Assembly (NCBI GenBank): GCA_963699705.1
Contig: CAVOUW010000003.1
Coordinates: 2,161,776-2,225,775 of the forward strand
DNA: 64,000 nucleotides
From: an uncultured delta proteobacterium
Lineage (GTDB): Bacteria > Desulfobacterota > Binatia > Binatales > Binataceae
Direction: 5' to 3'
The position numbers and the translations under genes are program-made. Below are positions 36,451 to 64,000 of the stretch, piece by piece (the first letter of the stretch is position 1; every line of letters begins with the position of its first letter). The notes beneath the pieces are model-generated. The model was given only the letters and a program-made list of their open reading frames with translations, was not told the origin of the DNA and did no database searches.

Positions 36451-37593
36451 CTAGAGTCGCATCGGCATGACGACGTAGGTGTACTGCTGATCCGTCTCGG
36501 TTCTGATGACGCCGGGGCTGACGTCGTCGCTTAGTCCGAGTTCTACTGTCGAATCCGCTTCCTGCGAAATTACGCCGAGGGCTTGCTGTACGTATGACGC
36601 GTTGAATCCGATCGCGAATTCTTCGCTCTTGAAATCGACGTCGAGCGATTCGCTGGCTTCCCCGGTTTCGGGACTCGTCGATGAGACCGTCAGCGTCCCG
36701 GCCGATAGCGCGAATTTGACGCCGTGATATCGCTCGCTGGAGAAGATTGCCGCGCGTTTGATTGCCGCAAACAGCAGATCACGCTTTACCGTGATTTTGT
36801 ATTTCGACTGCTTGGGGATTACACCGCGATAGTCAGGAAATTCGCCTTCGACCAGCCGCATCGAGACTTCAGTCGCGCCGCGCTTCAAATACGCGAGCTG
36901 ACCTTCGAGGCTCAGGCGCACTTCCGGTTCGGTGCCGACATCCAGAATCTTGCGCAGTTCCGCGAGACCCTTTCGCGGAATGATCGCGCCGCTTGGCATC
37001 GCGAATCCCGGCACCTCGCGCTCGATCATCGCGAGGCGATGCCCATCGGTCGCGACCATCCGAACCGCTCCGGGAGCGTTGGACTCGACAAACACGCCGC
37101 TCAAGTTGTAGCGCGCTTCATCGGGACTGACCGCGAAGATCGTTTTGTCGATCATCTGGGCCAGCACTGTCGCTGGGATCGCCAGTTCGGCCTTGAGCTG
37201 TTTCTTCGCTGCGCCAGAATCCTTGCCGGTGCTCTGACTTGGCATCGCGGGGAAGCTGCGCGGATCGAGGCCCATCATTTTGAACTTCGCGCGCCCGCAT
37301 TTCAGCTCGACCCAATCGCCATCAAGCGTCGTCAGCGCGACTTCCTCGCCTTCGGTCTCGCGCACGATTTCAAAAAGTTTGCGCGCGTTGAGGGTCAGAC
37401 TTTTTTCCTTGCCGCTACACGCGACCTGGGTGCGAATTCCGACTTCGAGGTCGGTGGCGCTGAGCGTCAGCGCGTTTCCGTTTGGCTCGAGCAGGACGTG
37501 ACCGAGGATCGGAACCGTCGTGCGCCGTTCCACGATGCCCTGGACGAGTCCCAAACCGCTAAGCAGCGAAGCGCGCTCGATTGCGAGTCCCAT
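36451..37593 (-). CDS. dnaN: DNA polymerase III subunit beta (sliding clamp)
   Basis: MGLAIERASLLSGLGLVQGIVERRTTVPILGHVLLEPNGNALTLSATDLEVGI…three-domain clamp. About 380 aa. Confidence 0.9.
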   Translation of the reverse strand: MGLAIERASLLSGLGLVQGIVERRTTVPILGHVLLEPNGNALTLSATDLEVGIRTQVACSGKEKSLTLNARKLFEIVRETEGEEVALTTLDGDWVELKCGRAKFKMMGLDPRSFPAMPSQSTGKDSGAAKKQLKAELAIPATVLAQMIDKTIFAVSPDEARYNLSGVFVESNAPGAVRMVATDGHRLAMIEREVPGFAMPSGAIIPRKGLAELRKILDVGTEPEVRLSLEGQLAYLKRGATEVSMRLVEGEFPDYRGVIPKQSKYKITVKRDLLFAAIKRAAIFSSERYHGVKFALSAGTLTVSSTSPETGEASESLDVDFKSEEFAIGFNASYVQQALGVISQEADSTVELGLSDDVSPGVIRTETDQQYTYVVMPMRL

Positions 37594-37833: not shown

Positions 37834-39258
37834 TCACGCCGCATTCGCGCGGATCGATTTAAGCTCGCGCTCGATTTTCTCGATCGAGAGCCGAAAAGCC
37901 GAATCACTGGTCACGCGCCGCATGATCAGGTTGTACGCGTGAATCACCGTCGAATGGTCGCGCCCGAAATGTTCGCCGATGGTCGGAAACGAGCTGTCGG
38001 TCAGCTTGCGGCAGAGATACATCGCGACCTGGCGGCAGAATGCGATGTGCTGCGTGCGCTTCTTCGACTTCAAATCCGTCAGCCGGATATGGAAAAAATC
38101 CGCGACGGTTTTCTGGATCGATTCGACGTCGGGCTTCGCGTCGTGATTGCGAATCAAATCCTGTAGCGCCTGCCGCGCGAAGTCCACGGTGATTGCCGAT
38201 TGGTTGAGCGACGCGAGCGCCGCCAGCCGCGTCAGGCATCCCTCGAGCTCGCGAACATTCGACGAAACGCTCTGCGCGATATACATCGCGACTTCGGGCG
38301 CCAGTCGCAGGTTTTCGAGCACCGCCTTCTTCTGCACGATCGCGACGCGGGTCTCGAGGTCGGGCGGTGCGATGTCCGCGATCAAGCCCATCTCGAAGCG
38401 ATTGCGCAGCCGCTCCTCGAGCCCCGGAATTTCGCGCGGCACTTTGTCCGAGGTCAGGATGATCTGATGCCGTTCGGCATGGAGCGCGTTGAACGTGTGG
38501 AAGAATTCTTCCTGCGTGCGCTCGCGACCGGCCAGGAATTGCACGTCGTCGAGGATCAAAGTATCAACGCGTCGAAACTTTTCGCGAAACTCGTTCATTT
38601 TGTCGCGCCGCAGCGAGCCGATCAGCTCGTTCATGAAAATCTCGGCCGGCATGAACAGCACTTTCCGCGGCCGCTCGCCGACGGCGTAGATATGGTGCCC
38701 GATCGCGGTCACCAGGTGCGTCTTGCCCAGGCCGACCCCGCCGTAGATGAAAAGCGGGTTGTATTTTTCGCCCGGCTGATTGGCGACCGCCTGGGCCGCG
38801 GCATGCGCGAACTGATTGGCCGATCCCACCACGAACTCCGCAAAACTGTAGCGGGCGTTCAGGGTCGGATGACGATCTCCACGCGGCGCAGCCGCCGTGG
38901 TCGCGCGATTGGTCGCATACGCCTTGCCGTTACCGTTCCCGTTAGCATGGCCGTTGCCATTTGAATGGCCGTTGGCATGACCATTGGCCGGACGTTGTGG
39001 CGGCGTCACGGCCGCAGCATTCTCGCCCAGCGTCAGCCGCACCTCGATTTCGCCGCCGGCCTCGGCCGACAGCGCGGAGCGCATCATGCTCATGTAGCGA
39101 TCGTTGATCCAATCGCGAAAAAATCGGTTGGGCGCTTCGACCGTGACCGTCGAACCTTGATGAGCGACAAAATTAAGCGGCCCAATCCACGTCTCGTACC
39201 CGACCTGACCGAGCTCATCGCGCATACGGTCCGCAGCCCGCTGCCATAGTCCATTCAT
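37834..39258 (-). CDS. dnaA: chromosomal replication initiator protein DnaA
   Basis: [28 protein letters not shown]…[10 protein letters not shown] (Walker A)…DDVQFL…a C-terminal DNA-binding domain (HSTVIHA). ATG at 39256..39258 is preceded by GGGGGAA. The ORF opens at GTG 39276. Confidence 0.9.
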
Positions 39259-39345
39259 ATCGTTCCCCCTGACCACCCCGGAAGCCCAAGCCCGCTCCGG
39301 AAATTAGCGCGCCGGCATCGATCCGGCGCGAATTACGCACAGTCT

Positions 39346-51845: not shown

Positions 51846-52907
51846 TCAGCCCAGGAAATGCATTGCGATGATTGCGTTGGTCACTACGAATGACGCGGGG
51901 ATCAGCCAGCGCGAGTATTTGCGGATCTCGAGGCCCAGGTCGCGGCGGCGTTCCGAGCGATGGGTTACGTGGACTGTCATCAGTTCCACCACTGCGAGGA
52001 AAACGTAGATGTAGCACTCGAGGAAGAACGCATCGATGTAGGTCAGGTACGGTAGCCGCGGCATCGTCGCGGAAATCGCAAACGCGAACGCGATCACAGT
52101 CAGAATCGTCGTGACTGCGACTTGCACCTGGTTCGACAAGTCGGTGACCTCGATCCAGAACACCGCCCACGACAGGAACACCATCAGCAAGAGCGGCAGA
52201 AATACCTTCCATAAATAAAAGCTCGAGCGCCGCTGAACAGAAATCGCGAACCTGGCCTCCGGCACCGTCCGGCCGCCGTAGGTCGGAGCCACTCCTATTC
52301 GCGGCTCAACCGCTGCGACCCTCCACTGCGCCAGCGACGAGTAGCTCTCGAACTCGCTCGCCGTCCAGGTCGAGTGATCGCCCAGCCTGAACCTGATGTG
52401 AGGTCCATCGACCAGGAACGGGTGAATTATGATAACCAGCGACTGCCGGTCGAACGGGAATCGCCGGAGCGCGAACTTCGATGACAGCCCGACCTTGCAT
52501 CGCTCTGCATAGCGCACGGTGCCGTCGGGCGCGACGCGGATCGAAGTGTCGTAGCGCTCGCGCGGCGTGGCGGCGTTGATCATTTCGAGCTGCGGAATCC
52601 AGATTTGCCCGAATGAGTAGTTGCGCTCCTGATCGTCGGAACCGCTCGGCGTGAAGGCGAGCCGCGGATCGATCCATTTTGCGAACAGGTACGCGTCCAT
52701 CTGGAACTGCTCGTTCACTTCGTCGATCGACGAGATGTTCACGATGTGCAGTCCGATGTCGATGTCGAGCGGCTGTCCGTTGTAGGGCGGAGGTTGCAGG
52801 ATGGGATCGGTAGCGATGCCGGTCGGAGTTTGCGCCGCGCGCGACTCTACCGGCCACAACATTGCCGCGACAATCGCAAAAGCAAGCGCAACGATCCCCT
52901 GACACAT
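51846..52907 (-). CDS. prokaryotic pentameric ligand-gated ion channel (Cys-loop receptor superfamily, GLIC/ELIC-like)
   Basis: A signal peptide, a ~200-aa beta-rich extracellular domain, then the pLGIC M1 signature RRSSFYLWKVFLPLLLMVFLSWAVFWI, M2 QVQVAVTTILTVIAFAFAIS, M3 and a C-terminal M4. Confidence 0.75.
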   Translation of the reverse strand: MCQGIVALAFAIVAAMLWPVESRAAQTPTGIATDPILQPPPYNGQPLDIDIGLHIVNISSIDEVNEQFQMDAYLFAKWIDPRLAFTPSGSDDQERNYSFGQIWIPQLEMINAATPRERYDTSIRVAPDGTVRYAERCKVGLSSKFALRRFPFDRQSLVIIIHPFLVDGPHIRFRLGDHSTWTASEFESYSSLAQWRVAAVEPRIGVAPTYGGRTVPEARFAISVQRRSSFYLWKVFLPLLLMVFLSWAVFWIEVTDLSNQVQVAVTTILTVIAFAFAISATMPRLPYLTYIDAFFLECYIYVFLAVVELMTVHVTHRSERRRDLGLEIRKYSRWLIPASFVVTNAIIAMHFLG

Positions 52908-52913
52908 CCCGAC

Positions 52914-54398
52914 TCAGCCTTCCGGCGCCAGCATTTTGTCTGCGCGCACCAGCCGGTCGAACTCCTCTCCCGACAGCAGTTTCAGCGCGATCGCGGCCTC
53001 GCGCAGCGAGATATTTTCCGCATGCGCCTTCTTTGCGACTTTGGCCGCATTGTCATAGCCGATAGGTTCGCTCAGCGCCGTCACCAGCATCAATGAACTT
53101 TTGACGTTGCGCCGAAGCTGTTCGCGATTCGGCTCGATCCCCTCGACGCAGTACTTGCTGAACGACGCGCACGAATGCGCCAGCAGCATCGTCGAGTGCA
53201 GAAAGTTGTGGATGATGAGCGGTTTGAAAACGTTGAGCTCGAAATTTCCCTGCGATCCGGCCATCGTGATCGCCACATCGTTGCCGATCACCTGGATACA
53301 GACCATCGTCATCGCCTCGCTCTGCGTCGGGTTCACCTTGCCCGGCATGATCGACGAGCCCGGCTCATTCTCCGGCAAAATTAATTCCGCCAGGCCGGTG
53401 CGCGGTCCCGATCCCATCCAGCGAATGTCGTTGGCGATTTTCATCAGCGAGACCGCGAGCGTCTTGAGCGCTCCGGAAGCAGCCACCAGCGCGTCGTGAG
53501 CCGCGAGCGCCGCGAACTTGTTCGGCGCCGATTTGAATGGCAACCCAGTGTACTCCGCGATCTTTTTCGCGACGCGCTCCGCAAATTCGCGATGCGTATT
53601 GAGTCCGGTGCCGACCGCCGTGCCGCCAATAGCCAATTCCAGCAGGTCCGGCATCGCAACCTCGAGCCGTTTCAAGTCGTAGTCGAGCTGCGCGACGTAG
53701 CCCGAAAATTCCTGGCCAAGCGTCAGCGGCACCGCATCCATCAGATGCGTACGCCCGATTTTCACGATGTCGTCGAACGCTTTCGCCTTGCGCGCGAGCG
53801 CGTCGCGCAACTTTCGCACCGACGGAATCAGGTCGTGCGTGACTTCCTCAGCTGCCGCAATATGCATCGCGGTCGGAAACGTGTCGTTGGACGACTGCGA
53901 CATGTTGACGTCGTCGTTGGGATGAATCGGCTTCTTGCTGCCGAGCACGCCGCCCGCCATCTCGATCGCGCGATTCGAGATGACTTCGTTGGCGTTCATG
54001 TTGGTCTGCGTGCCGCTGCCGGTCTGCCAGATGCGCAGCGGAAAATGATCGTCGAGCTTGCCCGCGATCACTTCGTCCGCAGCCGCGCTCATCAGCCGCG
54101 CTTTGTCCGGCGGCAGCTTGCCGAGATCGCGATTAACTTCCGCCGCCGCCTTTTTCAAAATCCCGAATGCGCGCACCACTGACCGCGGCATCCGATCGAA
54201 TCCAATTGCGAAGTGCAGCAGCGACCGTTCCGTCTGCGCGCCCCAGTAGCGATCGTTGGCGACGTTGATAGCGCCCATGCTGTCCGACTCGACACGCTGC
54301 CCGGTCTGCGGCGTCTTGACCGTCACACTCGCCTTCGCGGTCGCGGCGCGCTTGGCGGCACTGGCCTTGCGCATCTTCGCGCTCGATTTTGATGCCAT
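52914..54398 (-). CDS. fumC: class II fumarate hydratase with a Lys/Ala-rich N-terminal extension
   Basis: The [16 protein letters not shown] signature and [25 protein letters not shown]. The first ~35 aa are [34 protein letters not shown]. Confidence 0.85.
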
Positions 54399-56595: not shown

Positions 56596-57360
56596 GTGAC
56601 TGCTGGAGCGATGCATGAATCCCGCTCCACGCCATCGCCGATCGATCGTTACAGCCTCGCGAGCCTGCTGATCTATTTCGCGCTGTCGCTATTTTTTTTC
56701 GGCCGCTCGCTCGCAGGTCATCTTTCGAACGCGCATCTGGGTACCGGTCCCGACCCATCCGTCATGATCTGGATGCTGGTGTGGTGGTCGCATGCTATCG
56801 AGCACCGCTTGAACGTATTTATGACGCACGCGATCTGGGCGCCGTCCGGTTTCAACCTGGCCTGGGCAACCTGTATCCCGCTGGCTGCGTGGATCGCGCT
56901 GCCACTCACTCGCATCTTCGGGCCCGTCGTAAGTTACAATCTGCTGTGCCTGCTCGCCCCGGCACTGGCGAGTTGGACGGCGTTTATCCTCTGCCGCTAC
57001 CTGACCAACAGCTATTGGCCCGCGCTCCTTGGCGGCTACATATTCGGCTTCTCCTCATACATGCTCGGCCAGATGTACGGGAATTTGCCCCATCTCCTGG
57101 TATTCCCGGTTCCTCTGGCCGTATATTTAGTCGCGCGCAAACTTGCCGCAGACATAAAGACCGCGACCTTCGTAATGCTGCTGGCAATGGTTCTGGCGAT
57201 GCAGTTCCTGCTCACGATCGAAATCGTCGCGACCATGACGATGTTCGGCGCGATGGCGCTAGCGCTCGCAATATCATTTACCTCAGGCGATCTGAGAAGC
57301 CGTGTCTTGCGACTGATCGGTCCGATCCTCGCAAGTTATGCGATCGCAATCGCATGGTGA
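56596..57360 (+). CDS. polytopic membrane protein (N-terminal module of a two-part envelope protein)
   Basis: 254 aa, ~7 TM. GTG start. It ends in the GTGA/ATGGTGA overlap with the next ORF. Confidence 0.45.
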   Translation: MTAGAMHESRSTPSPIDRYSLASLLIYFALSLFFFGRSLAGHLSNAHLGTGPDPSVMIWMLVWWSHAIEHRLNVFMTHAIWAPSGFNLAWATCIPLAAWIALPLTRIFGPVVSYNLLCLLAPALASWTAFILCRYLTNSYWPALLGGYIFGFSSYMLGQMYGNLPHLLVFPVPLAVYLVARKLAADIKTATFVMLLAMVLAMQFLLTIEIVATMTMFGAMALALAISFTSGDLRSRVLRLIGPILASYAIAIAW

Positions 57361-58772
57361 GTCCCTATCTCTATTACCTCTTCGCCTTCGGATTTCCCCA
57401 CGGCCCGATGTGGTCGCTCGCGACGTTCTCCGGCGATCTGCTCAACTTCGTAGTGCCGACTAATTTGAACGTCCTCGGCCATATCGGCGCCTTCGAATCG
57501 ATCTCCAACAATTTCGCCGGCAACATCTACGAGGCCGCGGGATATCTAGGACTTCCACTCATACTGATCGCGATCATTTTCGCGCGCTATCACTGGCGCG
57601 AGCCGCTGGGCAAGTTGCTGATCGATTCGCTGGTGATCATTTGCGTCCTGTCACTGGGTCCTCTGCTTCACCTGGCAGGGAAGCCTTCAATCGGCCTGCC
57701 AGGAAAGTTGCTCGCGCGGTTGCCGATCCTTGAAAATGCGTTACCCGCGCGGTTCATGCTCTATGCTTTTCTGGATCTATCGATCTTAACTTCAATCTGG
57801 CTGGCCACCAGCTCCGCAAAAACAGTTTCGAAGTACGCAATTGCAGTTCTCGCGGCCTTGTTTCTGATGCCGAATCTCTCCGCGACCTCCTGGAGTGCGC
57901 CGATCGATACGCCGCCCTTCTTTTTGAACGGGCTCTACCGGAACTACCTGGCTCCCGACGAGACTGTGGTCATCCTGCCCTACGGGCTCAGAGGCAACAG
58001 CCTGCTCTGGCAGGCCCAGACCGACATTTATTTTCGCATGGCGGGCGGCTATACGGGCGTCATGCCTCCCGATTTCGAAAGTTGGCCGATTGTCGATGCG
58101 ATGTACGCTGGAGCTTACCTTCCCGACCCAGAAAATCAGTTGAAGGCGTTCCTCGCCAATCATGACGTAAGCGCGGTCATCGTCAGCGACAATGAAAAGG
58201 ACGCATGGCGGCCTCTGCTCGCCACCTTGGAAGTTACACCAATCGATGTCGGCGGCGTGGCACTCTACAAAATTCCACCTCTCAACCTTGCCGCTTATAA
58301 AGGTCAGACTCCGCTTAATTTGGAGCGCCAGGCCGATTCGACTCGCTTCGACGCTCTTATCGTCGCCGCCAACAAGTATCTCCAACGCACCGGCTCTCTC
58401 GACGGTCTCACTCCGCACGTGGCCGATAGCCTCGGCCTGATTCCCGCCGGTTGGCTCGTAGGTCCGCCGCTGCCGCCCTACTATTGGAGTCAGGGTTCGG
58501 AGCTTCGCCGCGACAAGGGTCTCTGGCTAGGTCCATGGCGCGACGGTCAAGCGAGCATCGGGTTGGAAGGTTCCTATGCCGCGATCAAACCGCTGATCGA
58601 CAAGTATCGCGCCTCGGCCAGCCAGATTTATTTTCCCTATCCAGATCAGTTCTCCGAGACTTCGCAGAAAGACGGCTCAGCGCTTCTGGTGATAGTCTTC
58701 GACCGCGAGCAATTGTCACGTGCAGCCGCTCAAATTGAAGCGTCCCCTTCAAGGCCGCGGGACGCCACGTGA
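57357..58772 (+). CDS. membrane protein with a large C-terminal periplasmic domain (C-terminal module, or a frameshifted continuation of the previous ORF)
   Basis: (M)VSPYLYYLFAFGFPHGPMWSLATFSGDLLNFVVPTNLN…4-5 TM, then about 300 aa soluble. Possible starts are GTG 57357 and ATG 57354. The ORF track extends it to 56781 in a non-coding frame. Confidence 0.45.
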   Translation: MSPYLYYLFAFGFPHGPMWSLATFSGDLLNFVVPTNLNVLGHIGAFESISNNFAGNIYEAAGYLGLPLILIAIIFARYHWREPLGKLLIDSLVIICVLSLGPLLHLAGKPSIGLPGKLLARLPILENALPARFMLYAFLDLSILTSIWLATSSAKTVSKYAIAVLAALFLMPNLSATSWSAPIDTPPFFLNGLYRNYLAPDETVVILPYGLRGNSLLWQAQTDIYFRMAGGYTGVMPPDFESWPIVDAMYAGAYLPDPENQLKAFLANHDVSAVIVSDNEKDAWRPLLATLEVTPIDVGGVALYKIPPLNLAAYKGQTPLNLERQADSTRFDALIVAANKYLQRTGSLDGLTPHVADSLGLIPAGWLVGPPLPPYYWSQGSELRRDKGLWLGPWRDGQASIGLEGSYAAIKPLIDKYRASASQIYFPYPDQFSETSQKDGSALLVIVFDREQLSRAAAQIEASPSRPRDAT

Positions 58773-59907
58773 GCGCGCTTCCTAAAGATTACCGTCCAAC
58801 TCTCGACGGATGGCGCGCGATAGCCATCCTGCTCGTGATGTTCGAGCATTGCGGCGGCGCCTTGTTCGAGCCGGGCGGTCGATTTCCCAATCCGACCTGG
58901 TTCGGAATCAGCCAGCACGGCGTATTCGGGGTTGACCTGTTCTTTGGTATCAGCGGGCTACTGATTTGCGGCCGCTTGCTCGACGAGAACGACAAAACCG
59001 GCGGGATAAGTCTTCGCAGCTTTTACACCCGGCGCGTGTTCCGAATTATTCCACCCGCATTCGCGTACCTTGCGACCATCGCCGTGCTCGCGATAATCGG
59101 CGTCATCGTATGTGACTCCGCGAGAATGGCTCGCCAGTCTGTTCTTTTCCCGCAACTACATCCTGATGCCAAAGGACGCCGGATGGTACACCGGACATTT
59201 CTGGTCGCTCGCCGTCGAGGAACATTTCTATCTCATCTGGCCGGCCGCGCTGATAGCACTCGGCAGTAGCCGCGCGCGGCGTTTCACGCCATGGCTGGCG
59301 ATCGCCGTCGCGCTATGGCGAGTGGTGGACTACGTCTATTTCCACGGACAAATCTGGCCCGGCGTCCTATCGAATCTCATATATGAGAGGACGGATACGC
59401 GCTTCGATGCTCTATTGTGGGGATGCTGGATCGCACTGATTGCTCGCGATCCGGCTTTCCGTGACGCTTACACGAAACCTCGGTGCGGGACTCATCATAG
59501 GACTTCTGCTATCGGCGCTGATCGCATTGCTCGCGCTGAATCCTCCGTTGCAGACGGGCGTCGAGGGTTTCCTGGTGCCCGCCATCCTGATCGGCACGGT
59601 TCTCAATCCCGGACTGTTGCTAAGCCGAATTCTCGAAACCTCACCGATGCGCTGGATAGGACGGATTTCCTACAGCCTCTACATCTGGCAGCAGCTTTTC
59701 CTCGGGACCATTCGCCGTCCGCTGCCGCTCGGAGTGCTGCAGGAATTTCCACTGAATATTGTCGCGGTATTCGTCTGCGCCGCCACGAGCTACTACCTGC
59801 TCGAGCGCCCACTGGTCCGCATCGGACATTCGTTGTCCGCCAGATTTCAAACTCCACAAATCCAGCCGAGCGCTCTTGTTCCGCTCTCCAGAAGGGAGAG
59901 GGGTTAG
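58769..59907 (+). pseudogene. acyltransferase family 3 (OafA/YrhL-like) membrane protein, two apparent frameshifts
   Basis: Frame 2: LDGWRAIAILLVMFEHCG…GVDLFFGISGLLI…RRVFRIIPP. Frame 0: WLASLFFSRNYILMPKDAGWYTGHFWSLAVEEHFYLIWP. Frame 1: IGRISYSLYIWQQLFLG…YYLLERP. All three acyltransferase-3 signature blocks are present but in three different frames (junctions at about 59105..59130 and 59455..59475). Confidence 0.65.
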
Positions 59908-59914
59908 GGGAGAG

Positions 59915-60361
59915 TTACTGCGTAATCACCATCGCGGCGGTGCGCGTGAGCGGGATTGTCACCGACGAAACCAGGTTCGTCAGCGGTGGAAAATTGTAGC
60001 TGACGCTTACGGTTACTTTGCTCCCGGGCTTGTTGTCCGGAGACCAGGTCGTGGTGACGGTCATCGAGCTCGTGGTCAGCACTCCGACGACGAGAGCCTT
60101 CACGTAATTCGTAACATCCGTCGAGGACACGACAGTTGTCGCGGTCGAGCCATGAACTGTCGCATAGCGAACTGCCTGCTGCGCGCTGTAACAGACGAAG
60201 TCGTAGCAATAGAGCGCCAGCGCGAAGTTGATGATCCCGAAAAACAGCGTCAGGCACGGCGTGATCACCAGCGCGAACTCCGCCATCGCCTGCGCCGGAT
60301 GCGATCGCCCCGCAGCGTCGCGTAATCGTCGCCACCCCTGCTTGAAGCCGCCGCGCTTCAT
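59915..60361 (-). CDS. TadE/TadF-like pilus assembly (minor pilin) protein
   Basis: MKRGGFKQGWRRLRDAAGRSHPAQAMAEFALVITPCLTLFFGIINFALALY is the TadE-like N-terminal motif. ATG at 60359..60361 overlaps the upstream stop (ATGA). Confidence 0.7.
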   Translation of the reverse strand: MKRGGFKQGWRRLRDAAGRSHPAQAMAEFALVITPCLTLFFGIINFALALYCYDFVCYSAQQAVRYATVHGSTATTVVSSTDVTNYVKALVVGVLTTSSMTVTTTWSPDNKPGSKVTVSVSYNFPPLTNLVSSVTIPLTRTAAMVITQ

Positions 60362-60819
60362 TGCACCACTCGCATGACAGCTTTGCCCGGCACCGTGATC
60401 GCCGGCAGGATTCCCATGAAGTTGATCAGCGGCGAATACGACGCGCTGGTATTGACCTGCGTGTACAGCAACCGATGGCTCCCTGAGCAGTCGGTCGCGA
60501 GGCAGGTTGACGCGCTTCCGTCCGAGCATTTGCAGAAATGAGACGCGACCGCGATCATCCCGCTGAGATTAGGTGCGTCGTTGGTCGCCGCCGCCTGCAT
60601 TCCCGCGTTGTCGGCCGCCGTCGAAAGATTCTGCGCACCATACTGGACGCCGGCCCGCGCCGCGTTCGCAACTGAAATCGCGATGTAGAACGCGCGCCCG
60701 GTTTCCACCACCACCAGGAACATCATCAGCAACAGCGGCAGACTGAGCGCGAGCTCCACCGACGCCTGCGCGCGACTGCTACGCCGCCGCATCCGCCTCG
60801 ATGTACGCAGCGCGTTCAT
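60358..60819 (-). CDS. TadE-like pilus assembly protein
   Basis: RRRSSRAQASVELALSLPLLLMMFLVVVETGRAFYIAISVANAARAG. Overlaps tadG by ATGA. Confidence 0.7.
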   Translation of the reverse strand: MNALRTSRRMRRRSSRAQASVELALSLPLLLMMFLVVVETGRAFYIAISVANAARAGVQYGAQNLSTAADNAGMQAAATNDAPNLSGMIAVASHFCKCSDGSASTCLATDCSGSHRLLYTQVNTSASYSPLINFMGILPAITVPGKAVMRVVQ

Positions 60820-62066
60820 TCGGCCAGCACCGCTCCTTTAATCGGTGAGCCGCCCGTCAGCGACGAATAGTTGCTGCCAATCGACGAGTTGCCGCTGACG
60901 CTCAGTTGATTCGCCACTACAATGCTGTAGCCGCTGGTGCTGCTGTTTCCGCCGAAGGTAACCGTTGTCGTCGGGAAGTAGAGCGCCCCATCGAAAGTCG
61001 AAGTGGAATTTCCGGTGATCGTGCTGCCTGCGGCAGTGCCCGGGATCGAGCGATCCTGAAAAAACAGGATTCCCACCAGCGGCCCCGAAGTCGGCGCGCT
61101 TAGGTTTGCTGTGCTGGTGCCGCTGAACGAAATTGCCCCGTATCCTCCCGTCCCCGTCGTGTTGTAAAAGGTGATCCCCGTGCCGGTCATTGTCGTGTTG
61201 GAGTTTATGCTCATTCCCCCACCGGCCAGCACGTAAGTTCCCGCGTTGAAATTCAGCACCGCATTCCCGTGGATCGTGATGCCGCCACAGTAGGTGCCGG
61301 AGTAGAGCTGGTAGGGACTGGCGCTGGTGCCGTTGTTTCCGCTCAGCGAAAAATTGGTGTGCGCACATGAGCCGACCGTCGGCGCAGAGACGTAGGCCAG
61401 CGGATCGGACGCCGCTATCACCCCGGTCTTCGGCGTCGGCGTTAGGCTCGTGCTGCCGCCGGCGCTGTATCCTCCAACCACACCGATGGTCGGCGCAGTG
61501 ATCGAGACGTTGCCCACTACCGACAAACCAGTCGAGGAACTCGAGTCCACCAGCAATCCGCAGCCGCTGTTAACGGTGACATTGCCGTTGGCCGAGAACG
61601 CCCCCGATGCGGACGGATTCAACACGTAAATGCAGTTCGGACCGTTGCCCTCATAAGCAACCGCGCGCGCCGATACCGTCATCGTGCTGACTCCGAGCAC
61701 GCGCAGAAAATAGGTCGGCTCGGGCTTGCTGACGGTCGCCTCGACGTAGGCTGAGTTCGCCGCGTTCGGTCCGGTACTGGGCGGATTGTTAATCGCCACC
61801 GTGACACTGCTGGCGCCGTCGGTGTATCCATTGCTGGCCGCGTCCGCTTTGCCCGCGACCACCTGGTCGCCATAGGCCAATTCCTCTGAACCCGCCATCG
61901 CTGCGCTATCCGCCGCCGTCTGCATCATGTTCTTTTGATGCTGCATGAAGCTGAAGTCGGTGACGACGCCGATCATTCCGATCATCGCGATCAGCGAGAC
62001 GCAGATCAGCACTATCGCCTGTCCGCGACCACTCGCCGCTAACGCCATCTTGTTCTTTGTATTCAT
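60816..62066 (-). CDS. TadG-like protein (Tad_N domain plus a Gly/Ser/Thr-rich beta-helical body)
   Basis: GQAIVLICVSLIAMIGMIGVVTDFSFMQHQKNMMQTAADSAAMAGSEEL (Tad_N), then a repetitive GxGxT/S-rich region. Confidence 0.7.
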   Translation of the reverse strand: MNTKNKMALAASGRGQAIVLICVSLIAMIGMIGVVTDFSFMQHQKNMMQTAADSAAMAGSEELAYGDQVVAGKADAASNGYTDGASSVTVAINNPPSTGPNAANSAYVEATVSKPEPTYFLRVLGVSTMTVSARAVAYEGNGPNCIYVLNPSASGAFSANGNVTVNSGCGLLVDSSSSTGLSVVGNVSITAPTIGVVGGYSAGGSTSLTPTPKTGVIAASDPLAYVSAPTVGSCAHTNFSLSGNNGTSASPYQLYSGTYCGGITIHGNAVLNFNAGTYVLAGGGMSINSNTTMTGTGITFYNTTGTGGYGAISFSGTSTANLSAPTSGPLVGILFFQDRSIPGTAAGSTITGNSTSTFDGALYFPTTTVTFGGNSSTSGYSIVVANQLSVSGNSSIGSNYSSLTGGSPIKGAVLAE

Positions 62067-63298
62067 TCGGCCAGTATGGTTCCCCTTATCGGCGAGCCGC
62101 CGGTTAACGAGCTGTAGTTGCTGCCAATAGTCGAATTGCCGCTCAGCGAGATCATGTCGGCGACCACGATGTTGTAGCCGTTGAGGCTGCTGCTGCCGCT
62201 GTAGGTGAGCGTTGTGGTCGGGAAGTACAGCGCGCCGTCGAAGGTCGAAGTCGAATTCCCGCTCACCGTGCTGCCATCAGCACTGCTTGGTATTGAGCGA
62301 TCCTGAAAAAACAGGATTCCCGTCAGCGGTCCCGAGGTCGGCGCGCTGAAATTCGCGGTCGAACCTCCGGTCAGGTTGATCGCCTTGTAACCGCCGGTTC
62401 CAGTGGTGTTGTAAAAAGTAATCCCGGTTCCCGCCATCGTCGGGCCGCCATTGGTGGTGAGCCCGCCACCCGCGAGTACATAAGTCCCTGCATTGAAATT
62501 CGTGTAGCCATTGCTGATCTTGATGCCGCCGCAATACGTCCCCGGATAAAGCTGGTAGTAAGTTGTGCTGGATCCGTTGTTGTTCACCGAAAAATTGGTA
62601 TGGGCGCATGATCCGACCGTCGGCGCCTGCACGTAGGCCAGCGGATCGGACGCCGCTATCACTCCGGTCTTCGGCGTCGGCGTAAAGCTCGCGCTCCCGC
62701 CAGACGTGTAGCCGCCGACCACGCCGATCGCCGGCGCCGTAATTGTGGCGCTGCCGCTGAGCGTCAAGGCAGTCGAGGAGTTGGAATCGATCATCACGCC
62801 GCATCCGCTCGAGACGCTCGAGCTGCCGCTGCCCGACAACGCGCTCGACGCCGTCGGATCCATCACGTAGATGCAGTTGGGGCCGTTGCCTTCGTACGCG
62901 ACCGCGCGCACCGACACGGTCATCGTGTTGATTCCAATCACGCTCAGAAAATACGTCGGCTCGGGCTTGCTGATAGTCGCCTCGACGTACGCCGTGTTTG
63001 AAGTATTCGGTCCGGTGCTCGGTGGATTGTTGATCGCTATCGTCACGCTGCCGGCGCCGTCGGTGTATCCATTTTTCGCCGCGTCAGTCTTCCCCGCCGC
63101 CACCTGGTCGCCGTAACTCAGCTCCTCCGCGCCCGCCATCGCCGCGCTATCCGCCGCCGTCTGCATCATGTTTCGTTGATGCTGCAAAAAGCTGAAGTCG
63201 GCGACGACCGCGATCATTCCCATCAGCGCAAACACCGCGACGCACACCAGCAGCATCACCTGCCCGCTCGGATTCGCGGACACCGTAAGCACTTTCAT
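62063..63298 (-). CDS. TadG-like protein, tandem paralog of the preceding gene
   Basis: MKVLTVSANPSGQVMLLVCVAVFALMGMIAVVADFSFLQHQRNMMQTAADSAAMAGAEEL. Over 70% identical to the neighbour throughout. ATG at 63296..63298. The ORF opens at 63394. Confidence 0.7.
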   Translation of the reverse strand: MKVLTVSANPSGQVMLLVCVAVFALMGMIAVVADFSFLQHQRNMMQTAADSAAMAGAEELSYGDQVAAGKTDAAKNGYTDGAGSVTIAINNPPSTGPNTSNTAYVEATISKPEPTYFLSVIGINTMTVSVRAVAYEGNGPNCIYVMDPTASSALSGSGSSSVSSGCGVMIDSNSSTALTLSGSATITAPAIGVVGGYTSGGSASFTPTPKTGVIAASDPLAYVQAPTVGSCAHTNFSVNNNGSSTTYYQLYPGTYCGGIKISNGYTNFNAGTYVLAGGGLTTNGGPTMAGTGITFYNTTGTGGYKAINLTGGSTANFSAPTSGPLTGILFFQDRSIPSSADGSTVSGNSTSTFDGALYFPTTTLTYSGSSSLNGYNIVVADMISLSGNSTIGSNYSSLTGGSPIRGTILAE

Positions 63299-64000
63299 TG
63301 CGCCACCCCGCGCAAGTGCTTTGGGATCGGCTGGCGTATAGCTGCTGCGCATTTTCGATTCTGCTCCAAGGGAACAGAGCACCGCCCGTGCCATCCGATT
63401 CCCCCGCCAAATCGCATCGCGCAGGCACCCACGTGTCTCAGGCTGACTCCGAAGTGTCCGGTTGTGATGCTGGCTGAGAAACTAACGTTCGTTAGACATG
63501 CGTGACAACTGGGGTAAAATCCGCACCGAACTGCGATCAGTCCTGCTTATGCAGATTTGAGCTAACGCTGCTTACAGCGACATACACCTTGCTCTTTGGA
63601 ACTGCATCGAAAACAGCATAAGTCCCATCAGCACAATAATACTAATGTTCTTACGCGTCGCCGATCGAAAAGGCTCGAGCGCTGCGGCCTCCACTACCGT
63701 GAAATGCCGAAACAGTCGGCCACTGCTCAGCACTTTTCACAGATCAGCCGCTAGTATCGGTACTTAAACGATCGTTCAAGTGACTAAAAGGTATTCAATA
63801 GTCGTTCTTTTCGGGCGCACCAGGGATCGACAAACCAGACGCCAGTTCATTAATAAAACTAATTCACTAGTGCTACCAAATCGCGGCACGCGACAAATGT
63901 CATTGACGATTTTGAGCCAGCGGCTCTAATGTCGGATCAGGGAAAAGACCGCGGCCATGAGCCGCTCGGGAGGCTATCGTATGCGTAGGCAGAAAACTTT

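What the first reader, a model, noticed from the sequence alone, without database searches (positions are those of the whole stretch)
59915..64000. Tad minor-pilin cluster with a tandem duplicated TadG-like pair and a low-GC upstream region
Four overlapping genes (ATGA junctions) encode two TadG-like proteins and two TadE-like proteins. The TadG-like pair (about 411/416 aa, over 70% identical) has a Tad_N domain plus a G/S/T-rich beta-helix-like body. No flp/cpa/tadABC genes are within the window. The 600 bp upstream (63400..64000) drops sharply in GC and ends with a possible new + strand gene (GGGAGG-N8-ATGCGTAGGCAG at 63981), which suggests an island boundary.
Basis: partly seen in the sequence, partly recalled or inferred. 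Interest (0 to 1): 0.5.

Follow-up and report, generated by a model that had tools for sequence, protein, structure and literature searches.

The report
Orphan Tad pilus-tip gene cluster
This is a conserved four-gene operon for the small "tip" proteins of a Tad/Flp adhesion pilus in an uncultured soil bacterium (Candidatus Binatus), a known kind of cluster and not a mobile island, whose low-GC upstream stretch is an ordinary regulatory region carrying a conserved sigma-54 promoter.

Summary
Four minus-strand genes joined by ATGA overlaps encode two TadG-like proteins (429 or 411 aa, and 416 aa; 73% identical) and two TadE-like prepilins. No flp, cpa or tad core gene lies in the window or in 8 kb beyond it.

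The "island boundary" reading fails. The 628-bp upstream stretch (GC 0.52) is a normal divergent intergenic region. The next gene, starting exactly at 63981, encodes a DUF1329 protein. This DUF1329 | TadG(1-3 copies)-TadE-TadE arrangement recurs at the same chromosomal spot in about 23-30 Binatus genomes.

The region carries an invariant sigma-54 type -24/-12 element (63393..63378), the only one in 64 kb, plus a conserved palindrome about 97 nt upstream.

Homologues sit inside true tad loci in Acidobacteria and in S. meliloti pSymA (sma1579). Orphan tadGEF clusters are already known in Bradyrhizobium and Myxococcus.

Most likely this is a sigma-54-controlled Tad pilus tip or initiation module with two alternative TadG heads. 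Whether Binatus has a Tad machine could not be tested. Verdict: a new member of a known kind, of modest interest.

The parts
62063..63352 (-). TadG-like large minor pilin, copy A (429 aa from the conserved ATG at 63352; alternative start 63298 gives 411 aa). It has a leader, then Gly followed by QVMLL, an alpha-1 helix, a pilin-like sheet and a beta-solenoid.
   Evidence: ORF. Gene call on the near-identical contig. Pfam Tad and Tad_C. The start codon is conserved in alignment A4 and lies just downstream of the promoter. It belongs to the A-type paralogue clade.
60816..62066 (-). TadG-like large minor pilin, copy B (416 aa), 73% identical to copy A.
60358..60819 (-). TadE-like prepilin 1 (153 aa). 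Motif RA|QASVE-LAL. Cys96, Cys98 and Cys111 are invariant and a fourth Cys is mostly conserved.
   Evidence: Pfam TadE 43.3 bits. Alignment A2 shows invariant Glu22 and Gly/Ala at -1.
59915..60361 (-). TadE-like prepilin 2 (148 aa, in the TadF position). Motif PA|QAMAE-FAL.
   Evidence: Pfam TadE 26.4 bits. Alignment A3 shows invariant Glu28.
63378..63393 (-). Sigma-54 type -24/-12 promoter element TGGCACGGGCGGTGCT. The predicted transcription start is near 63367.
   Evidence: It is the only match to TGGCAC-N5-KTGCW in 64 kb, against 0.04 expected. The exact element is found once, upstream of the first TadG gene, in 25 loci. A relaxed pattern finds it in all 30 Binatus-type loci and in 4 distant modules, against a background of 0.032 per kb.
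63482..63495 (.). Conserved 14-bp palindrome CTAACG-TT-CGTTAG (+ strand reading), about 97 nt upstream of the -24 element. It is a candidate activator-binding site.
   Evidence: The arms CTAAC/GTTAG are invariant in 8 of the 9 aligned Binatus spacers (L022 has GTTCG), while the inner bases vary. The sequence was read directly.
63635..63647 (-). Conserved block CATTAGTATTATT (minus-strand reading), function unknown.
   Evidence: 12 of its 13 positions are invariant in alignment A4.
63353..63980 (.). Divergent intergenic regulatory region, GC 0.516.
   Evidence: It holds no credible ORF and no Rfam match.
63981..64000 (+). 5' end of a 438-aa DUF1329 (LolA-like) gene, the conserved divergent neighbour.
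   Evidence: It is present upstream of the module in 23 Binatus loci.

Best explanation
This is a chromosomally fixed, sigma-54-controlled operon for the minor-pilin 'tip/initiation' set of a Tad (type IVc, Flp) pilus. It is encoded away from the pilus machine, like the orphan tadGEF cluster of Bradyrhizobium and the dispersed Tip clusters of Myxococcus.

Proposed mechanism, with each step marked as shown or inferred:

1. Transcription starts from a -24/-12 promoter at 63393..63378, driven by an unidentified enhancer-binding protein that probably binds the conserved palindrome about 97 nt upstream. The promoter and motif conservation are shown. The activator and the signal are inferred.

2. 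The four translationally coupled proteins insert into the inner membrane by their N-terminal hydrophobic helices. The two TadE-like proteins carry a G/A|xxxxE prepilin motif and would be cut by an A24 prepilin peptidase. The motif is shown. Cleavage is inferred.

3. One TadG-like protein forms the apex. It has a Gly cleavage-type motif but no Glu5, as in apex pilins such as GspK. With the two TadE-like proteins it would form a three-helix bundle that primes Flp polymerisation and stays at the distal end, so the beta-solenoid points outward as an adhesin or receptor. This step is inferred by analogy with KilLMN, CpaJKL and ComZ.

4. The two TadG paralogues, both under purifying selection, would compete for the same TadE partners and give two alternative tips. 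Gain and loss of copies (1-3 per species) would tune the tip repertoire. This step is inferred.
For: Domain hits are above the Pfam thresholds.

Glu is invariant at +5 and G/A at -1 in both TadE-like families across 24-25 loci.

The TadG family has Gly at the cleavage-type position in 112 of the 113 sequences that cover it, and hydrophobic residues at +5.

Homologous TadG-TadE-TadE modules lie inside complete tad loci in Solibacter L032, which has two Flp genes, a CpaE-like gene, an A24 peptidase, a CpaF-type ATPase and TadB/C. L046 and L047 also carry core genes. A full-length homologue, sma1579, sits in the functional S. meliloti flp-2 cluster (PMC10934763).

There is precedent for orphan tadGEF and Tip clusters and for heterotrimeric tip models (PMC12075869; PMC12607857; PMC12918737).

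dN/dS is 0.10-0.14 between orthologues and 0.22 between paralogues.

The sigma-54 element is conserved in 30 of 30 Binatus loci. Sigma-54-dependent control of Tad-type pilin genes is known in Desulfovibrio (PMC3333781).
Against: No Flp pilin, CpaF/TadA, TadB/C, secretin or prepilin peptidase has been seen in any Binatus or Binataceae sequence available here. All roughly 40 Binataceae modules are orphans within +/-10 kb, so the partner machine is assumed rather than shown.

No complex could be modelled.

The globular parts of the TadE-like proteins could not be modelled with confidence (single-sequence AF2, pLDDT 55.9).

Divergence between the two TadG copies is spread evenly (pilin module 77.5% identity, solenoid 72.7%). 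There is no obvious specificity-determining hypervariable patch.
Confidence: 0.6

Rival explanations
1. The module serves a different type IV filament, not a Flp/Tad pilus. Candidates are a type IVa pilus, a competence pilus or a type II secretion pseudopilus. The beta-solenoid protein would act like ComZ, for example as a DNA or substrate receptor at the tip.
For: The closest pilin among solved structures is ComZ of a competence or type IVa system. No tad core gene accompanies any Binataceae module. In Myxococcus some Tip sets and the major pilin are thought to be processed by a peptidase other than the Tad one (PMC12075869).
Against: The sequence families are Tad-specific: PF13400, PF09977 and PF07811. 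Homologues are embedded in bona fide flp/cpaF loci in Acidobacteria and Sinorhizobium. There is no sequence similarity to ComZ.
Confidence: 0.15
2. The TadG-like proteins are not filament subunits. They would be inner-membrane-anchored periplasmic or envelope proteins, either assembly factors or stand-alone beta-helix adhesins or enzymes. The TadE-like proteins would be accessory partners.
Confidence: 0.15
3. The cluster is a horizontally acquired genomic island, and its edge is the low-GC region at 63.4-64.0 kb.
For: GC is locally 0.49-0.52 against 0.60 for the window. Two genes just downstream, an acyltransferase_3 gene and a 720-aa membrane protein gene, are present in only 4 loci and look like a local insertion.
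Against: The same DUF1329 | TadG...TadE-TadE arrangement, with a low-GC spacer, occurs in 23 Binatus loci. The location near rnpA/yidC is conserved in 15-24 loci, and dnaA lies in the window. Coding GC and GC3 of the four genes are typical of the window. The window has no tRNA and no Rfam hit, and no integrase is among the genes called around the cluster. Other intergenic regions in the window are equally low in GC.
Confidence: 0.03

Closest known systems
Orphan tadGEF cluster ('cluster 4' / locus 3) of Bradyrhizobium diazoefficiens USDA 110 (Mongiardini et al. 2016, as cited in PMC12918737 and PMC10934763)
   Same: It is a small cluster in the order tadG-tadE-tadF, located away from the main tad/cpa loci. 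It encodes one large and two small pseudopilins. Its mutants are impaired in adhesion.
   Different: Here TadG is present in two tandem copies (1-3 across species). The host is Binatota, in which no Tad machine has been documented. The promoter is of the sigma-54 type. Direct homology to the USDA 110 TadG was not tested; only Bradyrhizobium plasmid homologues at 33% identity were seen.
Myxococcus xanthus Kil 'Tip' clusters kilL/M/N (PMC12075869)
   Same: TadE/TadF/TadG-like trios are dispersed in the genome. They are predicted to form heterotrimeric spearhead tips with the large subunit's C-terminal domain at the apex. The alternative tips are partly redundant. Disulfide-rich proteins are a shared feature.
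   Different: In Myxococcus the variety comes from four complete trios. Here it comes from tandem duplication of the large subunit only, which would share one TadE/TadF pair. The fold of the KilN distal domain is not stated in the passages read. No predatory context is known for Binatus.
Sinorhizobium meliloti sma1579 (Tad_N protein of the pSymA flp-2 cluster; NCBI name 'pilus assembly protein TadG-related protein')
   Same: It is a full-length homologue of the window's TadG-B, with 32% identity over residues 28-396, including the beta-rich body. It lies next to cpaA2-cpaB2-cpaE2-tadE-pilA2-cpaF2 in a cluster shown to make pili.
   Different: It is a single copy inside a tad locus on a megaplasmid, and its own function is untested.
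ComZ, competence-associated tip pilin of Thermus thermophilus (PDB 6QVI; PMC6561018)
   Different: There is no detectable sequence similarity. ComZ belongs to a type IVa/competence system and binds DNA. Its solenoid is inserted into the pilin sheet, and whether the topology is the same here was not determined.
CpaL / classical TadG (Caulobacter, Aggregatibacter, Pseudomonas)
   Same: [quoted passage not shown]
   Different: CpaL and many TadG proteins carry a vWA domain with a MIDAS motif. The window proteins have no vWA hit and have a beta-solenoid instead.

Membership tests
TadE/TadF pseudopilins (Tad minor pilins) | N-terminal TadE domain (Pfam PF07811) above the gathering score | tested here: met
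   43.3 and 26.4 bits against a cut-off of 22.9.
TadE/TadF pseudopilins (Tad minor pilins) | Prepilin-peptidase motif G/A-X4-E followed by a hydrophobic helix | tested here: met
   The motifs are RA|QASVE-LALSLPLLL and PA|QAMAE-FALVITP. Glu is invariant, and -1 is Gly or Ala in the matched motifs of both families across all held loci (35 G + 4 A; 34 G + 10 A).
TadE/TadF pseudopilins (Tad minor pilins) | Pilin-like globular domain after the helix | tested here: inconclusive
   Single-sequence AF2 gave only the helix with any confidence (pLDDT 55.9).
TadE/TadF pseudopilins (Tad minor pilins) | Encoded with flp, tadV and tadA-C, and processed by TadV | tested here: not met
   No core gene lies in the window, in the 8 kb beyond it, or in any Binataceae locus. 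The feature is met for distant homologues in L032, L046, L047 and S. meliloti. Processing itself cannot be tested in silico.
TadG-type large minor pilin | N-terminal Tad domain (PF13400) and Tad_C (PF09977) | tested here: met
   31.5 and 30.7 bits (cut-off 22.3); 24.5 and 25.3 bits (cut-off 22.1).
TadG-type large minor pilin | Long hydrophobic N-terminal helix followed by a pilin-like beta-sheet | tested here: met
   The AF2 model has helix 14-61 and strands 89-141, with pLDDT above 90.
TadG-type large minor pilin | C-terminal vWA domain with a MIDAS motif, as in CpaL and many TadG proteins | tested here: not met
   There is no vWA family at E <= 0.1. The body is a beta-solenoid. vWA is common in this group but not universal.
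ComZ-like beta-solenoid tip pilins | Pilin module plus a triangular beta-solenoid of the ice-binding-protein type | tested here: met
ComZ-like beta-solenoid tip pilins | Sequence homology to ComZ; DNA binding | tested here: not met
   A profile search of all PDB sequences gave no hit at E <= 1. DNA binding cannot be tested here. I therefore treat this as a structural analogue, not a family member.
DUF3494 ice-binding proteins | Match to the family's sequence model | tested here: not met
   No such Pfam hit at E <= 0.1. The similarity is in fold only, at 10-15% identity.
Sigma-54-dependent promoter | TGGCAC-N5-TTGCW-like element with GG and GC exactly one helical turn apart, upstream of the gene | tested here: met
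   TGGCACGGGCGGTGCT lies at 63393..63378, 26 nt upstream of the conserved ATG. It is unique in 64 kb against 0.04 expected. It is conserved in 30 of 30 Binatus loci.
Sigma-54-dependent promoter | RpoN and a cognate enhancer-binding protein in the genome | not testable with these tools
   No GAFTGA protein occurs in the window or in the Binatus loci. One sits about 6-7 kb from the module in the Terriglobia tad locus L047.
Genomic island | Atypical composition of the cargo, tRNA/integrase/repeat borders, patchy presence among relatives | tested here: not met
   Coding GC and GC3 are typical. The window has no tRNA. Synteny is conserved in 23-30 related genomes.

The most novel reading that the evidence does not exclude
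The large 'TadG-related' family seen here has more than 10,000 clusters at 50% identity. It may be the Tad-pilus counterpart of ComZ: a beta-solenoid tip receptor class distinct from the vWA-type TadG/CpaL. In Binatus, sigma-54 control and birth-and-death of tandem paralogues would then let cells switch what the pilus tip binds. A stronger version follows from the fact that none of about 40 Binataceae modules sits near any pilus machine. In that version the module would be used by a non-Tad filament or by an undescribed assembly route.
Probability: 0.2. Interest if true: 0.55.

Novelty: new member of a known kind. Interest (0 to 1): 0.3.

Why it matters
Minor pilins decide what a Tad pilus sticks to and whether it forms at all, and their tip domains are only now being characterised.

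This locus adds three usable facts:
- A very widespread TadG-related family carries a ComZ/ice-binding-type beta-solenoid rather than a vWA domain.
- In Binatota, an uncultured soil phylum known for methylotrophy and alkane use, the tip module is chromosomally fixed next to a DUF1329 gene, and its large subunit varies from one to three copies.
- It is driven by an invariant sigma-54 promoter with a conserved upstream palindrome. That gives a concrete handle (motif, regulator hunt, reporter) for asking when these bacteria deploy pili.

None of this overturns current models. It extends the 'adaptable tip' idea to a new phylum and a new tip fold.

Tried and rejected
- **Island hypothesis:** rejected on synteny, composition and the absence of a tRNA in the window or an integrase among the genes called around the cluster.
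- **Hidden flp gene or RNA element in the 628-bp spacer:** no credible ORF, no Flp motif anywhere in the window, and no Rfam hit.
- **Tad core genes in the window or loci:** tblastn with Solibacter CpaF, TadB, TadC, A24 and CpaE found them only in L032, L046 and L047. A Pfam scan of ten window ORFs of 353-844 aa found none.
- **Whether Binatus has a Tad machine anywhere:** this could not be answered.
- **Fold searches:** the afdb50 library was unavailable. Foldseek against PDB gave no significant match. Sequence search of PDB gave nothing.
- **Hypervariable, specificity-determining patch between the two TadG copies:** none was found. Divergence is spread evenly.
- **Ala instead of Gly at -1 in both TadE-like proteins:** this first looked peculiar to this genome, but Ala occurs in 4 of 39 and 10 of 44 homologues respectively, so it is ordinary G/A variation.
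- **Nearby sigma-54 activator:** none in the window or in the Binatus loci.


Full report
**What is there.** Window 59915..63394 carries four minus-strand ORFs. A near-identical public contig (ENA ERZ25039470 contig_137; 99.3% identical over 13 kb) has the same four gene calls. The junctions read gccgaATGAat (62066..62063), gccgaATGAac (60819..60816) and gcaATGAag (60361..60358), so the genes are translationally coupled. Both large proteins match Pfam Tad (PF13400) and Tad_C (PF09977), and both small ones match TadE (PF07811), all above the gathering scores. NCBIfam gives only sub-threshold TadE-like hits. The two large proteins are 73% identical. The two small ones resemble each other only in the N-terminal 60 residues. 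The window is 60% GC and chromosomal, with dnaA at 37834..39276 and dnaN at 36451..37593.

**Organism and family size.** The closest homologues (75-92% identity) come from soil MAGs named Candidatus Binatus or Binataceae (phylum Binatota). NCBI calls them 'pilus assembly protein TadG-related protein'. An exhaustive profile-free search of 1.84 billion cluster representatives found 10,805 representatives at E <= 1e-3 and 1,551 at E <= 1e-30. Nearly all of the 150 best listed match over almost their full length. This is therefore a very large family, not an oddity.

**Beyond the window, and the 'island' idea.**
- The next 8 kb encode a pyroglutamyl peptidase, a cyclase, an acetyltransferase, a lactonase-like protein, a nucleoside phosphorylase and a PAS histidine kinase. 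No flp, cpa or tad gene is among them.
- A scan of one genome per species returned 50 loci.
- In the 30 Binatus-type loci the unit is always TadG-like (one, two or three tandem copies), then TadE-like 1, then TadE-like 2.
- A divergent DUF1329 gene lies upstream in 23 of them.
- Ferredoxin and fumarase-family genes lie downstream in 24 loci, and AhpC and DsbA genes in 16-18. rnpA-yidD-yidC-jag lie further upstream in 15-24 loci and mnmE in 9.
- The spacer between DUF1329 and TadG is low in GC in those genomes too (0.40-0.58, against 0.59-0.63 for the loci).
- Within the window, the 628-bp spacer (GC 0.516) is no lower than the regions upstream of dnaA (0.516) or at 54.4 kb (0.511).
- There is no tRNA and no Rfam match anywhere in the window.

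The cluster is therefore ancestral at this position, and the low-GC stretch is an intergenic control region, not an island edge. The only local novelty is downstream. An acyltransferase_3 gene and a 720-aa membrane protein gene are shared by just four loci.

**The upstream region is a conserved sigma-54 control region.** I aligned nine Binatus spacers, whose flanking TadG proteins are about 70-95% identical, and found islands of invariance.
- The strongest is ATGGCACG-N4-GTGCT immediately before the first TadG gene. In the window it is TGGCACGGGCGGTGCT at 63393..63378 on the minus strand.
- It is the only match to TGGCAC-N5-KTGCW in 64 kb, where shuffles give 0.04.
- The exact element occurs once, in the right place and orientation, in 25 loci.
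- A slightly relaxed pattern finds it in all 30 Binatus-type loci and in four distant modules (L033, L035, L041, L044). The background is 0.032 hits per kb.
- About 97 nt upstream lies a 14-bp palindrome (63482..63495). Its arms CTAAC/GTTAG are invariant in eight of the nine spacers while the centre varies. That is the usual position for an enhancer-binding protein.
- Further conserved blocks include CATTAGTATTATT (63635..63647).
- A conserved ATG at 63352, with GGAG 11 nt upstream, follows the promoter. The 63394 ATG of the maximal ORF lies inside the promoter. The first TadG is therefore most likely 429 aa, as the gene caller also chose, rather than 411 or 443 aa.
- No activator gene (GAFTGA motif) is present in the window or in the Binatus loci. 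One lies about 6-7 kb from the module in a Terriglobia tad locus.
- Sigma-54-dependent regulators of Tad-type pilin genes are documented in Desulfovibrio (PMC3333781).

**What the proteins look like.**
- Both TadE-like families keep an invariant Glu five residues after a Gly or Ala, followed by a hydrophobic stretch. This is the G/A-X4-E motif cut by Tad prepilin peptidases (as stated in PMC10934763 and PMC12607857). TadE-like 1 also has three invariant cysteines and a mostly conserved fourth.
- The TadG-like family has a charged leader, a Gly present in 112 of the 113 sequences that cover the column, and then Q-V-L-V-L. Position +5 is never Glu. From general knowledge of GspK-type apex pilins, this is what one expects of the first subunit at a filament tip.
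- With a 129-sequence alignment, AlphaFold2 modelled TadG-B at pLDDT 94.4 and pTM 0.87. The model has a 48-residue N-terminal helix, a small pilin-like sheet, and an all-beta body from residue 144 to the end. Four cysteines in the beta-rich body are nearly invariant (C145, C169, C234, C260), which fits an extracytoplasmic protein.
- ComZ is described as a GspK-like pilin domain with a triangular beta-solenoid whose nearest fold is an ice-binding protein, and as sterically able to sit only at the pilus tip (PMC6561018).
- Foldseek puts the same ice-binding proteins on top but without significance, and there is no sequence-level PDB match. The resemblance is therefore one of architecture, not demonstrable homology.
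- No vWA domain, the hallmark of CpaL and many TadG proteins, is present.

**Link to real Tad systems.**
- In Candidatus Solibacter (L032) the same TadG-TadE-TadE unit (about 46-48% identity for TadG) sits between two Flp genes plus a CpaE-like gene on one side and an A24 prepilin peptidase, a T2SSE ATPase and two T2SSF platform genes on the other. Two Terriglobia loci (L046, L047) also carry CpaF, TadB, TadC and CpaE within 10 kb.
- Among annotated plasmids, 106 records hold homologues. In S. meliloti pSymA the homologue (sma1579; 32% identity over residues 28-396) lies beside cpaA2-cpaB2-cpaE2-tadE-pilA2-cpaF2, the flp-2 cluster shown to make pili.
- The family is thus genuinely Tad-associated.
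- Orphan minor-pilin clusters are also established. Examples are tadGEF of B. diazoefficiens, needed for root adhesion, a lone tadG in Bdellovibrio, and four dispersed kilLMN 'Tip' trios in Myxococcus. Those trios are modelled as heterotrimers with the large subunit's C-terminal domain at the apex and act as interchangeable tips.
- Several of the MAGs here likewise carry two dispersed modules, for example L008+L036, L014+L030 and L039+L044.

**The duplication.**
- Among the 30 Binatus-type loci, TadG copy number is three in 4 (L002, L003, L012, L015) and two in 5 (this genome, L004, L005, L023, L027). It is one in the rest.
- A neighbour-joining tree splits the copies into an A-type clade and a B-type clade. 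The A-type clade holds window copy 1 with L002.1, L005.1, L012.1, L028, L015.2, L008 and L027.2. The B-type clade holds window copy 2 and most single copies.
- Younger duplicates occur within B, at 84-85% identity in L012 and L023.
- The pair is therefore older than the species sampled, and has been followed by losses and new duplications.
- Both window copies are under purifying selection. dN/dS is 0.10 and 0.135 against their L002 orthologues, and 0.22 between the paralogues.
- Their differences are spread evenly, with 77.5% identity in the pilin module and 72.7% in the solenoid. There is no sign of a single hypervariable binding patch.

**Interpretation.** The best reading (about 0.6) is a sigma-54-controlled operon for the tip or initiation complex of a Tad-type pilus. 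In this reading either TadG paralogue caps a bundle formed with the two TadE-like pilins and presents a beta-solenoid adhesin or receptor.
- Shown: the genes, motifs, fold, conservation, promoter element and the Tad linkage of homologues.
- Inferred: processing, complex formation, tip location, alternative use of the paralogues, and the existence of a partner machine.

The main gap is that no Flp, ATPase, platform, secretin or peptidase gene was seen in any Binataceae sequence I could reach. The literature held here is also silent on pili in Binatota. The rivals are use by another type IV filament (0.15), a non-filament membrane or envelope role for TadG (0.15), and a genomic island (0.03).

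**Verdict.** The island idea is wrong. The object is a new member of a known kind, the orphan tadG-tadE-tadF tip cluster, with three modestly new features. These are a ComZ/ice-binding-type solenoid in a huge TadG-related family, variable tandem copy number of the large subunit, and an invariant sigma-54 promoter. Interest is about 0.3.

Noticed in passing
window 56596..59907 (indels near 57358, 59108, 59482): Compared with the 99.3%-identical contig L001, the window has single-base indels. They split the 720-aa membrane protein gene into two frames and the Acyl_transf_3 gene into three ORFs. L001 in turn has the Lyase_1 gene split where the window has it intact (52914..54398). These are either long-read homopolymer errors or strain-specific pseudogenes. 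None falls within the four tad-like genes.
   Followed up: partly
window 63981..64000 and L001 6770..8086; L033 14512..15933: A DUF1329 (LolA-like) gene is the conserved divergent neighbour of the module in 23 Binatus loci and shares its control region. Another DUF1329 gene lies 2 kb downstream of a distant paralogous module in L033. A functional link between an outer-membrane DUF1329 protein and the pilus tip module is possible but untested.
   Followed up: partly
window 51846..52907 (-): A 353-aa protein with Neur_chan_LBD and Neur_chan_memb domains. It is a bacterial pentameric ligand-gated ion channel homologue, conserved in 15 of the related loci.
   Followed up: no
L032 14588..16825: The ORF called for the Solibacter Tad ATPase is 745 aa, with the T2SSE domain only at residues 389-666. 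That implies a roughly 380-residue N-terminal extension, although the start codon was not checked. It is reminiscent of the TadZ-TadA fusion reported in Bdellovibrio. The extension was not analysed.
   Followed up: no
L052 11875..13170 (S. meliloti pSymA, sma1579): [quoted passage not shown] However, sma1579, in the flp-2 cluster, is a full-length homologue (32% identity, E = 1e-33) of the TadG-related family studied here, and NCBI names it accordingly.
   Followed up: yes
L036 12807..16526: In a second, distant module of a Binatus MAG, the TadG-TadE unit is followed by a 1,239-aa protein with subtilase S8 and FG-GAP domains. It could be a secreted or tip-associated partner.
   Followed up: no
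L047 2343..3776: A sigma-54 enhancer-binding protein (Sigma54_activat plus HTH_8) lies about 6-7 kb upstream of the TadG module in a Terriglobia tad locus. It is the only such gene in the roughly 1 Mb of loci held.
   Followed up: partly
window 59908..59914: The operon's last gene ends only 7 bp from the convergent acyltransferase gene. The short gap and flanks contain a CTCTCC...GGAGAG inverted repeat that could act as a bidirectional terminator. It was not evaluated.
   Followed up: no
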